From: Promethearchaeota archaeon
Lineage (GTDB): Archaea; Asgardarchaeota; Lokiarchaeia; Sigyniarchaeales; SOKP01
Assembly (NCBI GenBank): GCA_019058295.1
Contig: JAHPZI010000025.1
Coordinates: 12,418-75,285 of the forward strand
Reading direction: 5' to 3'
DNA: 62,868 nt
In this document: positions 36,686 to 46,046 of the stretch, one piece after another
Position numbering within the stretch: the first letter of the stretch is position 1
Layout: every line of letters begins with the position of its first letter
The notes under the pieces: generated by a model
Databases searched by the model: none
What the model was told of the DNA's origin: nothing
What the model saw: the letters and a program-made list of their open reading frames with translations, nothing else
Position numbers and translations under genes: made by a program

Positions 36686-36756
36686 GCGCTCGTAGTATAG
36701 GGGTAGAATATCAGGTTCCCAACCTGATGACCCGGGTTCAATTCCCGGCGGGCGCA
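36686..36756 (+). tRNA. tRNA-Gly(CCC)
   Basis: Acceptor GCGCTCG/CGGGCGC-A; anticodon arm TCAGG-TTCCCAA-CCTGA; T arm CCGGG-TTCAATT-CCCGG. Confidence 0.96.
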
Positions 36757-44008: not shown

Positions 44009-45223
44009 ATGGATCATAACAAGATAGAACAGCTTCGGTTGCGTTTAAGAAAAGATAGCGATATCGGAATCCATGGAATACTAGATTCACAAGCTGTTAG
44101 ATATTATGAAGAAAAAGAAGAAGATAAAAATTATATTGATATTAGATCTCCTTTTTTCAGAGATGTGGATCGGATTGTTCATAGCAAAGCATACTCGAGA
44201 TATATTGACCGCTCCCAAGTGTTTTTTGATATAAATAACGCAAATATCACTCATCGTTCTTTACATGTGGTCTTAGTTTCGAGAATAGCACGCCAGATAG
44301 GTAGAGTTTTAAAACTTAATACTGATTTAATAGAGGCAATAGCTTTAGGACATGATATCGGACACCCGCCATATGGGCACTTAGGAGAGCAAATTTTAGA
44401 TAATATTAGTAAAAAATATAAGATGGGTGGATTTTTACACAACGCTCAAAGTATTAGGTGGCTAACCCATCTAGAAAAAAGATTTCCTAAGAAGCCTGCT
44501 AATGGATTAAATTTAACCCTACAAGTATTAGATGGCATCCTTTGCCATGATGGAGAAATTAACGAACAAAAGTTAAAACCAAAAAAAATTAATAGTAAAA
44601 CTTGGAATGACCATTTTAGAGAATATAACGATTGCTTTAACGAAAACATAATTAAAAGAATTCCTATGTCAAATGAAGGTGTTGTTGTAAGATTTGCTGA
44701 CGCCATTTCTTATATAGGAAGAGACATTGAAGATGCGATTCTGTTAAAGTTCATAAAACGCTCTGATATACCAGAAACTTGCAGAAAAATTCTCGGAGAT
44801 ACAAATCGAAAGATTATTAATACATTAATAATGGATCTCCTTGACTTTAGTTTAGATAACGATATAATTGGATATTCTGAGAAAATATTTGAGGCTTTGA
44901 AAGAATTAAAGATGTTTAATAATAATGAAATATATCTTAGAAGAGATTTATATCAAAAGAAAGATTCTAAAATTCCCTACGCAGATGAATTAACTAAAAA
45001 ATTCGAATTGATTTTTAAAAAATGTCTAAAAGATTTAGAAGAGGAAAATTACGAAGAACCAATTTTTAAAGATCATATCGAATATATTGATAACGAAAAT
45101 TATACTACTTATTTTAAACCCCTTAAAGAGAATAATTTGACTCTTATTGTGCGAGATTATATCGCAGGAATGTCAGATAAGTATTTCAAAGAGATATATG
45201 AAAAATCTTCAAAAAAGATTTAG
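44009..45223 (+). CDS. dGTP triphosphohydrolase-like HD protein
   Basis: RDVDRIVHS, HRSLH, GHDIGHPPYGH, ADAISY, DYIAGMSD. Confidence 0.9.
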   Translation: MDHNKIEQLRLRLRKDSDIGIHGILDSQAVRYYEEKEEDKNYIDIRSPFFRDVDRIVHSKAYSRYIDRSQVFFDINNANITHRSLHVVLVSRIARQIGRVLKLNTDLIEAIALGHDIGHPPYGHLGEQILDNISKKYKMGGFLHNAQSIRWLTHLEKRFPKKPANGLNLTLQVLDGILCHDGEINEQKLKPKKINSKTWNDHFREYNDCFNENIIKRIPMSNEGVVVRFADAISYIGRDIEDAILLKFIKRSDIPETCRKILGDTNRKIINTLIMDLLDFSLDNDIIGYSEKIFEALKELKMFNNNEIYLRRDLYQKKDSKIPYADELTKKFELIFKKCLKDLEEENYEEPIFKDHIEYIDNENYTTYFKPLKENNLTLIVRDYIAGMSDKYFKEIYEKSSKKI

Positions 45224-45281
45224 CCTTTTTATTTTTCATTGGTGAAATAAAAATTAGCTAACTATATTATTATAGGTAAGA

Positions 45282-45464
45282 GGATTACACATAACGGAGG
45301 AAAAACAAGGGTTTCTTTTTCAGTCACGGGGTTTTTTACGCTTCATATAGAAACGATTTTTTTTAGTTCAGTTATTACGGGGTTTTTAAAGAATTAGTAT
45401 TTAACTGAATTATTTTTTTTTTACATCCTCCGTGCAATTTTGAAAAATTGTATATGTGTAATCC
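45282..45464. ncRNA. Putative structured non-coding RNA (unclassified)
   Basis: 12-bp terminal helix, 8-bp inner helix, three hairpins, duplicated ACGGGGTTTTT motif. Confidence 0.5.
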
Positions 45465-45574
45465 CAGTAAATATATGATCCTTATCAATAAAAATCTATC
45501 TGATCGGTATATTTAAATTACAATTCTTATGTGAAAGAAAAACTTTTTAGGAATCTTAAGTTTTAATACATTAA

Positions 45575-45677
45575 AGCCGAGTGGTGTAGTGGCCAAGCAT
45601 CGGGGGCCCTGAACCCCTGGACCACGGTTCGAAAATTAGCGATATGGCGTTGCTCTTCGAGATTCCGTGCTCGGCTA
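45575..45677 (+). tRNA. tRNA-Gln(CTG) with a 30-nt intron at position 59/60 (45634-45663)
   Basis: Acceptor AGCCGAG/CTCGGCT-A; anticodon loop CCCTGAA; T stem CACGG/CCGTG; BHB helix TTCG/CGAG. Confidence 0.88.
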
Positions 45678-45686
45678 TATTTCTTT

Positions 45687-46046
45687 TTACCCTGTTCGTT
45701 TAATAATATGATATCCAAATTGGGTTTTGACAGGTTGGGAAATTGATCCGACTTTTAATTTTGTACAAGCATTCCAGAATTCGGATACCATTTTACCTTT
45801 TGGAAATTCCCCTAAATTACCTCCTTTATTCTTACTCGGGCACTCAGAATATTGTCTTGCGAGTTTTTCAAAGCTTTCACCAGCTTGCAAATCTTCATAA
45901 ATTTCTTGGGCCATACTTAGCTTATTAACTAATATATGGCTTGCTTTTATTTTTCCCCCTTTTATTGGGGCTCCATCTTTTCCTGTGGAGCCCTTTGATG
46001 CTCCAACCTTTTTTTGCATCCCTTTTCCATATTTTGGCTTTCCCAT
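45687..46046 (-). CDS. Parvulin-type PPIase with basic N-terminal tail
   Basis: [26 protein letters not shown]. Confidence 0.93.

What the first reader, a model, noticed from the sequence alone, without database searches (positions are those of the whole stretch)
45282..45464. Unannotated ~183-nt multi-helix non-coding element upstream of tRNA-Gln
Seen: P1 GGATTACACATA (45282-93)/TATGTGTAATCC (45453-64); P2 ACGGAGGA (45294-301)/TCCTCCGT (45426-33); hairpin GCAATTTT-GA-AAAATTGT (45434-51) completing a three-way junction. Inside are two hairpins (GTTTCT/AGAAAC 45311-54; TAGTTCAGTTA/TAACTGAATTA 45364-412). Each carries TTCAGT..ACGGGGTTTTT and is followed by a T8-10 tract. G-U pairs mildly favour the + strand. 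It matches no tRNA, SRP, RNase P or C/D RNA I recognise. Inference: a novel ncRNA with two equivalent protein-binding or guide hairpins, whose U tracts could bind Sm/Lsm proteins. A MITE or ssDNA structure is an alternative.
Basis: partly seen in the sequence, partly recalled or inferred. Interest (0 to 1): 0.7.

Follow-up and report, generated by a model that had tools for sequence, protein, structure and literature searches.

The report
New small RNA gene, Loki archaea
The flagged fold-back is a real, single-copy gene for a folded non-coding RNA of about 135-220 bases, kept in one family of Loki-type Asgard archaea; it is most likely read from the strand opposite to the one proposed, fits no catalogued RNA family, and its job is unknown.

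Summary
The helices are in the sequence as described, and the fold is well beyond chance (z -4.7 on the plus strand, -6.1 on the minus strand). There is no Rfam match.

**Distribution.** The element is single copy in this 3.2-Mb Asgard (Loki-type) genome. A covariance model finds exactly one copy per genome in 96 of 131 sampled genomes of the same family. It finds none in 24 genomes of six other families of the class.

**Structure.** The two closing helices, P1 and P2, carry many compensatory changes.

**Strand.** On the minus strand a conserved archaeal promoter has its TATA-like box 23-30 nt before the first G of GGAUUAC. The genome's RNase P and SRP RNA genes have the same promoter. T-runs follow the minus-strand 3' end, while the plus strand carries internal U8-U12 terminator tracts.

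**Expression.** Short contigs from RNA libraries of three studies lie on the element.

**Anatomy.** A long closing rod carries an A/U-rich top. The top has an invariant AACUA-U5 tract and two copies of the module AAAACCCCGU(G)..ACUGA. Either ACUGA can pair with one UCAGUU.

**Ruled out.** MITE, SRP RNA, RNase P RNA, Y RNA, C/D and H/ACA RNAs, and a small ORF.

**Function.** My guess is a stable trans-acting platform RNA. This is inferred, not shown.

The scan's first stage flagged the same element in another genome (e1-5585204).

The parts
45282..45464 (-). The ncRNA gene. The mature core is 183 nt, from the 5' G at 45464 to the 3' C at 45282.
   Evidence: CM hits of full length, one per genome. 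P1 ends define both borders in 45 homologues. Contigs from RNA libraries lie on 45282-45448.
45487..45502 (-). Promoter. A BRE-like CAGATAGA sits at -38..-31 and a TATA-like TTTTTATT at -30..-23 relative to 45464.
   Evidence: Conserved at fixed spacing in 45 loci, with 27.0 bits of information against 13.2 on the other flank. The same motif and spacing stand before this genome's RNase P and SRP RNA genes.
45468..45476 (-). Conserved proximal A/T element (ATATATTTA, -12..-4) just upstream of the start.
   Evidence: Consensus taTATATTTA in 45 loci. Its role is not tested.
45453..45464 (-). P1, 5' strand (GGAUUACACAUA).
   Evidence: Pairs with 45282-45293. 97.7% of cells are paired and 9 of 10 pairs show changes on both sides. 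Examples are GGUGGAUGU/ACAUCCACC and GGAUUAUAC/GUAUAAUCC.
45282..45293 (-). P1, 3' strand (UAUGUGUAAUCC).
   Evidence: As for the P1 5' strand.
45435..45450 (-). H1, a small hairpin between P1 and P2. It is specific to part of this genus.
   Evidence: Present in the window, G005, G002 and G006, with a shifted register in two of them. Other genera have an unpaired 5'-side loop here.
45426..45433 (-). P2, 5' strand (ACGGAGGA).
   Evidence: Pairs with 45294-45301. 87% of cells are paired and 7 of 8 pairs show changes on both sides. Variants include GAAGAUA/UAUCUUC, GAGGAGAAUUUU/AAAAUUCUCCUC and UGAAGGAA/UUCCUUCA.
45294..45301 (-). P2, 3' strand (UCCUCCGU).
   Evidence: As for the P2 5' strand.
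45413..45422 (-). A-tract (A10) after P2. It can pair with the U-tract at 45301-45308 (P3).
   Evidence: The complementarity AAAAAG/CUUUUU is kept in most members, but only 63% of cells are paired in the sequence-based alignment and there is little covariation. P3 forms in the MFE folds.
45402..45412 (-). P4, 5' strand (UAAUUCAGUUA, core UCAGUU).
   Evidence: Can pair with either ACUGA element: 8 bp each in the window, 6 and 7-8 bp in most relatives. Covarying forms are GGCUA/UAGCC (G001, G003) and UUCGGUUU/AAACUGAA (G015).
45388..45401 (-). Conserved AACUA-U-tract (family consensus AAAAACUAgUUUUU).
   Evidence: The highest interior conservation besides the C-rich modules.
45375..45387 (-). 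Module 1: AAAAACCCCGUAA.
   Evidence: AACCCCGU is near-invariant in 45 homologues.
45364..45374 (-). First ACUGA element (UAACUGAACUA), the 3' strand of P4a.
   Evidence: P4a is the predicted ground state in this genus.
45339..45355 (-). H3, a small hairpin CGUUUC-UAUAU-GAAGCG. It is genus-specific.
   Evidence: Kept with a G-U pair that moves between the window and G005. On the plus strand it would be an A-C mismatch.
45315..45338 (-). Module 2: UAAAAAACCCCGUGACUGAAAAAG. It includes the second ACUGA, the 3' strand of the alternative helix P4b.
45249..45253 (-). First T5 run after the 3' end, the likely terminator of the primary transcript.
   Evidence: A run of at least four T lies within 20 nt of the 3' end in 29 of 45 homologues. 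U-tracts are archaeal terminator signals (PMC8716108).

Best explanation
**What it is.** A stand-alone gene for a stable non-coding RNA. The RNA is 183 nt here and 128-222 nt in relatives. It defines a new RNA family of one family of Lokiarchaeia-type Asgard archaea.

**Shown or strongly supported.**
- It is transcribed from the window's minus strand. Its own BRE/TATA promoter is at 45487-45502, the start is the G at 45464, and the RNA ends at or shortly after 45282, before a T-run.
- The 5' and 3' ends pair (P1, then P2) into a long closing rod.

**Plausible from conserved complementarity.** The rod is prolonged by an A-tract:U-tract helix (P3) and by a UCAGUU:ACUGA helix (P4).

**Anatomy of the top.** The A/U-rich top carries an invariant AACUA-U5 tract. 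It also carries two copies of a module AAAACCCCGU(G)-N0-4-ACUGA. The single UCAGUU strand can pair with either ACUGA. The two predicted conformers differ by a median of 2.2 kcal/mol, so one module sits at the base of a helix while the other is exposed.

**Inferred mechanism (about 30% for this step).** The rod protects the RNA from exonucleases. The top acts in trans as a platform that presents the two C-rich modules, and perhaps the A- and U-tracts, to a sequence-specific partner. I think the partner is more likely a protein, either dimeric or an Sm-like ring, than a nucleic acid. On that reading the RNA is a scaffold or decoy of a housekeeping ribonucleoprotein.
For: **Real and non-random.** Fold z-scores are -4.7 and -6.1.

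**Single copy.** One copy in the own genome. One full-length copy per genome in 42 of 101 genomes with model R1 and in 96 of 131 family genomes with model R2. A further diverged member in genus g5 was found by synteny.

**RNA structure is selected.**
- P1: 97.7% of cells paired, 9 of 10 pairs with changes on both sides.
- P2: 87% paired, 7 of 8 pairs.
- 0 of 500 shuffles reach the observed values. Sliding the partners drops pairing to about 45-49%.
- The raw sequences show whole-helix swaps.

**Strand.**
- The conserved promoter is at a fixed distance from the start.
- The same promoter type stands before this genome's RNase P and SRP RNA genes.
- A T-run of at least 4 lies within 20 nt after the minus-strand end in 29 of 45 loci, against 6 of 45 for the other strand.
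- The longest internal U-run has a median of 6 on the sense strand and 9 (up to 12) on the antisense strand. U4-tracts are archaeal termination signals that Loki aCPSF1 also uses (PMC8716108).
- G-U pairs in P4a, H3 and H2 variants fit the minus strand only.

**RNA libraries.** Contigs of 112-163 nt from metatranscriptome runs of three studies lie on 45282-45448, one of them at 100% identity.

**Weak strand hint.** In X19 the adapter orientation puts read 1 on the plus strand. That means a minus-strand RNA in most stranded kits.

**Alternative helices.** Both are present in 35 members, and the MFE is one of the two in nearly all.

**Module uniqueness.** The composite module CCCCGU..ACUGA occurs nowhere else in the genome.
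Against: - No partner has been identified and the function is untested.
- P3, P4 and P5 show little covariation. They are mostly invariant or A-U.
- G-U against A-C counts in P1 and P2 are 7 against 4, so they do not settle the strand on their own.
- The RNA-library evidence is assembled contigs. They cannot show strand, ends or level, and DNA carry-over cannot be excluded.
- The sense strand itself has U5-U7 runs that might terminate some transcripts early.
- In members with an inserted hairpin, the CCC of module 1 is paired with GGG, so that module is not always single-stranded.
- The family seems restricted to one taxonomic family, which is unusual for a core housekeeping RNP.
Confidence: 0.55

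Rival explanations
1. Same minus-strand RNA, but it works as a base-pairing regulatory sRNA. On this reading the two C-rich modules are redundant seeds that pair with G-rich sites (..ACGGGGUU..) in target RNAs. Bacterial RsaE/RoxS, 6C and CcsR RNAs work this way, and Methanosarcina sRNA41 is recalled to work this way as well. An Sm-like protein might help.
For: - There are two copies of an invariant C-rich motif in an A-rich, probably unpaired context.
- The terminal stem followed by a U-run resembles Hfq/Lsm-binding ends.
- There is an 8-bp match, AACCCCGU with ACGGGGUU, around position 393 of a family 16S rRNA.
Against: - The genome has only 2 sites matching TCACGGGGTT and 11 matching ACGGGGTTT, counting the element's own antisense. 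None lies at a convincing ribosome-binding site.
- Duplexes with RNase P RNA, SRP RNA, tRNA-Gln and 16S rRNA are no better than shuffled controls.
- The motif is not an anti-Shine-Dalgarno sequence.
- Strict invariance over a whole family fits one conserved partner better than many mRNAs.
Confidence: 0.2
2. One reading: a plus-strand ncRNA of about 183 nt. Its U8-U10 tracts would bind Sm/Lsm proteins.
For: - The helices are strand-symmetric and the plus-strand fold is slightly more stable.
- One G-U pair in the window's hairpin, and one C-A/G-U case in P1 of three related genomes, fit the plus strand.
- One RNA-library contig ends exactly at 45282.
Against: - There is no conserved promoter on that side: 13.2 bits against 27.0.
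- Internal U-runs with a median of 9, up to 12, in four or five tracts would terminate archaeal transcription inside the element (PMC8716108).
- A T-run follows the plus-strand end in only 6 of 45 loci.
- The model built on the minus strand scores its own strand 68-120 bits against 34-41 bits for the antisense.
Confidence: 0.07
3. A DNA-level or cis element rather than an RNA gene. Options are a palindromic protein-binding or recombination site, a bidirectional terminator/insulator between the dGTPase-like gene and tRNA-Gln, or the 3' UTR of the dGTPase-like gene.
For: - The element lies just past the 3' end of the dGTPase-like HD gene in 35 of 45 loci, convergent in 34 and in tandem in one. 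It lies next to tRNA-Gln(CUG) in at least 21 of 45.
- It has T/A-tracts on both strands.
- Inverted repeats bound by one protein could also co-vary.
Against: - The HD gene has its own T5 T5 terminator directly after its stop codon.
- The adjacency is lost in the sampled loci of genera g3, g4, g6 and g7, while the element is kept.
- In one genome (L062) the element sits in tandem rather than convergent with the HD gene, with its promoter intact.
- P2 changes sequence freely while keeping its pairing, which a protein site would not do.
- The element has its own conserved promoter and is present in RNA libraries.
Confidence: 0.05
4. A MITE or other mobile element with terminal inverted repeats.
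For: A 12-bp perfect terminal inverted repeat.
Against: - One copy in the genome and one copy per genome across the family, at a syntenic place.
- No target-site duplication is seen at the borders.
- No match in phage records or viral contigs.
Confidence: 0.01

Closest known systems
Orphan stand-alone structured ncRNA genes of AT-rich archaea (for example the Hgc RNAs of Methanocaldococcus; from memory)
   Same: A discrete structured RNA gene in an intergenic gap of a 31% G+C genome. It has its own archaeal promoter and U-tract terminator, and no known function.
   Different: No sequence or structure similarity to any Rfam family, the Hgc families included. Restricted to one Lokiarchaeial family.
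Bacterial sRNAs with repeated C-rich motifs (RsaE/RoxS, 6C RNA, CcsR 'cuckoo' RNAs; from memory)
   Same: Two copies of an invariant C-rich motif shown in an otherwise A/U-rich, weakly paired region of a small stable RNA.
   Different: Those motifs are anti-Shine-Dalgarno-like and sit in hairpin loops. Here the motif is CCCCGU(G) followed by ACUGA. No G-rich target class was found, and the organisms are archaea.
Sm/Lsm/Hfq-bound small RNAs (Sm-class snRNAs, archaeal SmAP-associated sRNAs)
   Same: A terminal stem followed by a U-run, plus internal conserved U5 and A-tracts that such rings could bind.
   Different: No canonical Sm site (RAU4-6GR). The conserved tract is ACUAgUUUUUAA. Binding was not tested.
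6S RNA and Y RNA (abundant RNAs whose 5' and 3' ends form a long rod)
   Same: Size of 135-220 nt. The ends pair into a long, partly sequence-conserved stem that encloses a large weakly paired region. Single copy, and recovered in contigs of several RNA libraries.
   Different: No Rfam 6S or Y RNA match. No central bubble flanked by two rods. No TROVE/Ro gene in four family genomes. Archaea have no sigma-70 holoenzyme.
MITEs
   Same: Short, AT-rich, with a 12-bp terminal inverted repeat.
   Different: Single copy, syntenic, with a promoter, compensatory changes and presence in RNA libraries.

Membership tests
Any Rfam 15 family | Score at or above the family's gathering threshold | tested here: not met
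   The only window hit is tRNA-Gly at 36686-36756. With permissive filters the best hit on the element is a plastid group II intron piece at 21 bits against a threshold of 140, which reflects A/U composition only.
MITE / transposable element | Multiple dispersed copies with target-site duplications | tested here: not met
   One copy in 3.2 Mb. One per genome in 96 family genomes. Same neighbours in most loci.
Archaeal SRP RNA | It is the genome's SRP RNA (match to RF01857) | tested here: not met
   The SRP RNA lies elsewhere, at G000 C10:19378-19615 (E 7.7e-13). The UGUAAUCC resemblance to the Alu-domain motif is on the untranscribed strand and is base-paired.
Archaeal RNase P RNA | Match to RF00373 with the conserved P4 regions | tested here: not met
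   RNase P RNA lies at G000 C7:12632-12958 (131 bits).
Y RNA | A Ro/TROVE protein is encoded in the genome | tested here: not met
   PF05731 was not found in G000, G006, G078 or G106.
Box C/D sRNA | Box C (RUGAUGA) near the 5' end and box D (CUGA) near the 3' end, forming a K-turn | tested here: not met
   No RUGAUGA on either strand (reading). GUGA and CUGA are adjacent, or flank a helix with Watson-Crick pairs rather than sheared G-A pairs.
Box H/ACA sRNA | ACA box 3 nt from the 3' end, after a hairpin with a pseudouridylation pocket and a K-turn | tested here: not met
   The 3' end is ..GUGUAAUCC followed by (A)ACC(C)U-run. No conserved ACA.
Telomerase-type template RNA | Genomic G-rich repeats complementary to the AAAACCCC template | tested here: not met
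   No G4Tn-type tandem arrays in the genome or at contig ends.
Small protein gene | A conserved open reading frame | tested here: not met
   Only ORFs of 21-37 codons. 1-nt indels between close relatives break every frame.
Sm/Lsm-bound sRNA | Binding of an Sm-like ring to a U-rich site | not testable with these tools
   U5-U7 and A7-A10 tracts are present. There is no binding assay.
Stand-alone archaeal ncRNA gene (generic kind) | Own promoter, own terminator, conserved structure with covariation, evidence of RNA | tested here: met
   Promoter and terminator. Covariation. Contigs in RNA libraries of three studies.

The most novel reading that the evidence does not exclude
The RNA is the subunit of a so-far unknown housekeeping ribonucleoprotein of Lokiarchaeia. 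It would be a stable, abundantly made RNA whose two CCCCGUG..ACUGA modules and A/U-tracts are held by a dedicated protein, either dimeric or an Sm-like ring. Its toggling UCAGUU helix would switch which module is exposed. That would make it an Asgard-specific counterpart of particles such as the 7SK, Y or 6S RNPs.
Probability: 0.2. Interest if true: 0.8.

Novelty: new variant of a known kind. Interest (0 to 1): 0.55.

Why it matters
Asgard archaea are the closest known relatives of eukaryotes, and almost nothing is known about their non-coding RNAs.

This is a well-defined RNA gene. It has a promoter, a terminator and proven closing helices. It is single copy and is kept in nearly a hundred genomes. 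It turns up in contigs of RNA libraries from environmental samples of three studies. It has no assigned family or function.

It gives a concrete bait for pull-downs to find RNA-binding partners in this lineage. It also gives annotators a model that fills a recurrent 'empty' gap next to tRNA-Gln. Finally, it shows that strand calls made from helices alone can be wrong in AT-rich archaea.

Tried and rejected
**RNA families and mobile elements**
- Rfam gathering and permissive scans found nothing.
- A BLAST for copies in the own genome found only short A/T-rich chance hits.
- The phage collection gave no match.
- A viral-contig pattern scan gave 34 chance matches. None scored with the model (best E 0.08).

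**Distribution outside the family**
- The other families of the order (0 of 19) and of the class (0 of 24) gave no hit.
- The strict filters lose diverged members: genus g5 has one that only synteny revealed. Genus g8 has nothing downstream of its dGTPase gene.
- In family f2 the tRNA-Gln hits lie in a different context, with no comparable element.

**Search for a partner**
- Exact and near-exact complements of the modules in the genome are few and are not at start sites.
- RNAduplex against RNase P RNA, SRP RNA and tRNA-Gln is no better than shuffles.
- 16S rRNA is missing from G000 and G106. In a family 16S (G016) an 8-bp match at about position 393 lies only at the 5% tail of shuffled queries.
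- 23S rRNA was not obtained.
- TROVE/Ro is absent.
- There are no telomere-like repeats.

**Helices and strand**
- RNAalifold on MAFFT alignments recovered only P1 and P2.
- P3, P4 and P5 are not proven by covariation.
- G-U against A-C counting does not settle the strand.

**Sequencing runs**
- The RNA-library contigs leave the flanks 45117-45271 and 45458-45550 uncovered. The 5'-most 16 nt (45449-45464) are not covered either. This proves nothing, because these are contigs and a filter applies.
- X18 and X19 both stop at 45448, in X19 at an adapter. I cannot interpret this.
- X20 covers only the tRNA.

**Literature and unused tools**
- Two full-text searches found no paper on Lokiarchaeial small RNAs.
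- No complex prediction was run, because there is no candidate protein.

Full report
**1. What is in the sequence**

- A 12-bp outer helix (P1) runs on directly, on one side, into an 8-bp second helix (P2).
- A small hairpin sits between their other strands.
- The interior holds a longer hairpin, two copies of TTCAGT..ACGGGGTTTTT, and T8-T10 tracts.

Both strands fold far better than dinucleotide shuffles. The plus strand gives -47.2 kcal/mol (z -4.7). The minus strand gives -41.5 kcal/mol (z -6.1). One proposed inner helix, GTTTCT/AGAAAC, is not kept even within the genus. The conserved feature there is a 6-bp hairpin at 45339-45355.

**2. Organism and surroundings**

The neighbouring genes place the window in an Asgard archaeon. 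They include the FttA/aCPSF1 termination factor and a protein with UFM1-ligase, DDRGK, PCI and VPS28 domains. The genome has 31% G+C.

The element lies between two genes.
- One is a dGTPase-like HD-domain gene at 44009-45223 on the plus strand (TIGR01353, 173 bits). It has its own T5 T5 terminator right after the stop codon.
- The other is a tRNA-Gln(CUG) gene at about 45575-45677 on the plus strand. It carries an intron in the T-loop, so ARAGORN and Rfam miss it.

**3. Copy number and distribution**

The genome holds one copy. BLAST against relatives found the element with its neighbours in the same genus at 81-91% identity, and in pieces in other genera.

A covariance model built from four close sequences (R1) found exactly one full-length hit per genome in 42 of 101 family genomes. 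A second model built from 33 sequences (R2) found one per genome in 96 of 131.

No hit came from 19 genomes of three other families of the order, nor from 24 genomes of six other families of the class. The filters are strict. A diverged member in genus g5 was found only by looking downstream of its dGTPase gene (36.5 bits). Absence elsewhere is therefore 'not found', not 'absent'.

Nothing similar is in phage records or viral contigs. A MITE is excluded.

**4. The helices are selected as RNA pairs**

The test alignment holds 45 sequences. Its interior was aligned by sequence only. Results:
- P1 is paired in 97.7% of cells, and 9 of 10 pairs show changes on both sides.
- P2 is paired in 87%, and 7 of 8 pairs show such changes.
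- No shuffle out of 500 reaches the observed values.
- Sliding the 3' partners by 1-3 columns drops pairing to about 42-49%.

The raw sequences show the swaps directly:
- P1: GGAUUACAC/GUGUAAUCC becomes GGUGGAUGU/ACAUCCACC or GGAUUAUAC/GUAUAAUCC.
- P2: GGAGGA/UCCUCC becomes GAAGAUA/UAUCUUC, GAGGAGAAUUUU/AAAAUUCUCCUC or UGAAGGAA/UUCCUUCA.

The alignment was fitted to P1 and P2 by the model, which favours them somewhat. The unaligned sequences make the same point.

Three further helices have conserved complementarity but little covariation, so they remain plausible rather than proven:
- P3, an A-tract with a U-tract.
- P4, UCAGUU with ACUGA.
- P5, around the AACUA-U5 tract.

**5. Which strand**

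Helices cannot tell the strand, and G-U counts in P1 and P2 are 7 against 4. The flanks can.

Reading the minus strand, all 45 loci have the consensus AGATAgATTTTTATT. Its T/A box lies 23-30 nt before the first G of GGAUUAC. A second A/T element lies at -12 to -4. Together they carry 27.0 bits, against 13.2 bits for the flank that would serve the plus strand.

The same GATTTTTATT / AAATTTTTATT box, at the same distance, precedes this genome's RNase P RNA and SRP RNA genes.

After the minus-strand 3' end, 29 of 45 loci have a run of at least four T within 20 nt, typically (A)ACC(C)TTTTT. After the plus-strand end only 6 of 45 do.

Inside the element, the plus-strand RNA would carry U-runs with a median length of 9, up to 12, in several tracts. 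The minus-strand RNA has a median of 6. U4-tracts are the archaeal termination signal. They act together with aCPSF1, and a Lokiarchaeal aCPSF1 does the same (PMC8716108).

Several lineage-specific pairs are G-U on the minus strand and would be A-C on the plus strand. These are P2 in G002 and G006, hairpin H3, the P4 variants of G001 and G015, and the U-G in P4a of 23 sequences.

I conclude, at about 85-90%, that the RNA is the minus strand: 5' G at 45464, 3' end at or shortly beyond 45282. In the window the first T5 lies 29-33 nt further on, at 45249-45253. The primary transcript may therefore be trimmed back to the stem.

**6. Evidence of RNA**

One look-up found four metatranscriptome runs with a small share of the words. 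I laid them on 44900-45800.
- Contigs of 112-163 nt from three studies (wetland, rhizosphere, wetland) lie on 45282-45448.
- One of them is 100% identical over 45299-45438.
- A fourth run has only the tRNA.
- Two contigs carry sequencing adapters at both insert ends, so those inserts were short.
- In X19 the adapter types place read 1 on the plus strand. In most stranded kits that means a minus-strand RNA. This rests on one or very few fragments of a library whose kit I do not know, so it is only a hint.

Contigs cannot give level, ends or strand, and DNA carry-over is possible.

**7. Anatomy of the RNA (sense strand)**

The typical member is 135-145 nt. In outline, from 5' to 3':
1. GGAUUACAC (P1).
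2. An unpaired stretch of about 10 nt on the 5' side only.
3. UGGAGGA (P2).
4. AAAAAG (P3).
5. AUAUCAGUUU (P4).
6. AAAAAACUAgUUUUU.
7. AAAACCCCGUG(U)GACUGA (module 1).
8. A7-10.
9. CCCCGUAUAAACUGA (module 2).
10. AAAUACUUUUUU (P3 return strand).
11. UCCUCC (P2 return strand).
12. GUGUAAUCC (P1 return strand).

The window's genus adds two small hairpins (H1, H3), which gives 178-184 nt. Other lineages insert a hairpin between CCCCGUG and ACUGA. That hairpin is closed by CCC(G)/(C)GGG with a 3-nt CGU bulge, and it does not have K-turn geometry.

In 35 members the single UCAGUU strand can pair with either ACUGA: 6 bp with the first, including a U-G pair, and 7-8 bp with the second. The predicted ground state is nearly always one of these two conformers. 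They differ by a median of 2.2 kcal/mol, with a range of -3.2 to +5.9. This genus prefers the first conformer and genus g11 the second.

The composite module occurs nowhere else in the genome.

**8. What it is not**

- Not SRP RNA or RNase P RNA. Both lie elsewhere in the genome.
- Not a Y RNA. Four family genomes have no TROVE/Ro gene.
- Not a C/D or H/ACA RNA. The boxes are absent.
- Not a telomerase-like template. There are no G4Tn arrays.
- Not a coding gene. ORFs are at most 37 codons, and 1-nt indels between close relatives break every frame.
- Not the 3' UTR or terminator of the dGTPase-like gene. That gene has its own terminator. The adjacency holds in 35 of 45 loci (34 convergent, one tandem) but is lost in four genera that keep the RNA. 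In one genome the RNA, with its promoter, lies in tandem rather than convergent.

**9. How it most likely works**

Shown: there is a gene for a structured RNA with a protected, paired 5'/3' end.

Inferred: because the closing helices change sequence freely while the interior motifs are near-invariant, the interior is what a trans partner reads.

I looked for a nucleic-acid partner and found none.
- Complements of the modules are rare and are not at ribosome-binding sites.
- Duplexes with RNase P RNA, SRP RNA, tRNA-Gln and 16S rRNA are no better than controls.
- 23S rRNA was not available.

I therefore favour a protein partner. This is a stable platform or decoy RNA that offers two copies of CCCCGU(G)..ACUGA, plus U5 and A-tracts, to a dimeric or ring-shaped RNA-binding protein. 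The alternative UCAGUU pairings would set which copy is exposed.

I put about 30% on this mechanism and about 20% on a base-pairing sRNA with C-rich seeds. The remainder goes to functions I cannot name.

**10. Novelty**

No paper in the held library describes small RNAs of Lokiarchaeia, and Rfam has no such family.

Earlier notes of this scan describe several other orphan RNA families in Loki-type genomes. One first-stage note (e1-5585204) is on this same element in another genome, without follow-up.

It is a new RNA family of a known general kind, the stand-alone archaeal small RNA gene.

Noticed in passing
window 45575-45677 (+): tRNA-Gln(CUG) has an intron of about 30 nt inside the T-loop, so ARAGORN and the Rfam tRNA model do not report it. 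Relatives carry introns at other positions of the same tRNA: after the anticodon, in the variable region, or none.
   Followed up: partly
G000 contig C22:30303-33335 (outside the window): About 30 intron-less tRNA genes stand back to back, on both strands around one point. Elsewhere in this genome the tRNA genes are scattered and mostly carry introns. This looks like a tRNA array of mobile, viral or foreign origin, or contamination.
   Followed up: no
G000 contig C10:19378-19615 (outside the window): The SRP RNA matches the archaeal model only over positions 67-307 and stays under the gathering score (59.8 against 96.5 bits). The 5' (Alu-domain) part seems diverged in this lineage.
   Followed up: no
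window 45487-45502 (-); G000 C7 upstream of 12632; C10 upstream of about 19290: Three stable-RNA genes (this RNA, RNase P RNA, SRP RNA) share a promoter of the form (A/G)AT(A/T)TTTTTATT about 23-24 nt before the start, followed by a TATAT-like element near -10. This could serve as a search pattern for further ncRNA genes in this family.
   Followed up: partly
L062 (G098:C10), positions 157-1371 and 1501-1676: In this one genome the dGTPase-like gene lies upstream of the RNA on the same strand, instead of convergent with it. The RNA gene with its promoter has been inverted relative to its neighbour.
   Followed up: no
several family genomes: 16S rRNA matches are split into pieces at model positions about 496/517 and 828/829 in several genomes. 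This suggests insertions or introns in the 16S genes of this family. G000 and the closed genome G106 show no 16S or 23S match at all.
   Followed up: no
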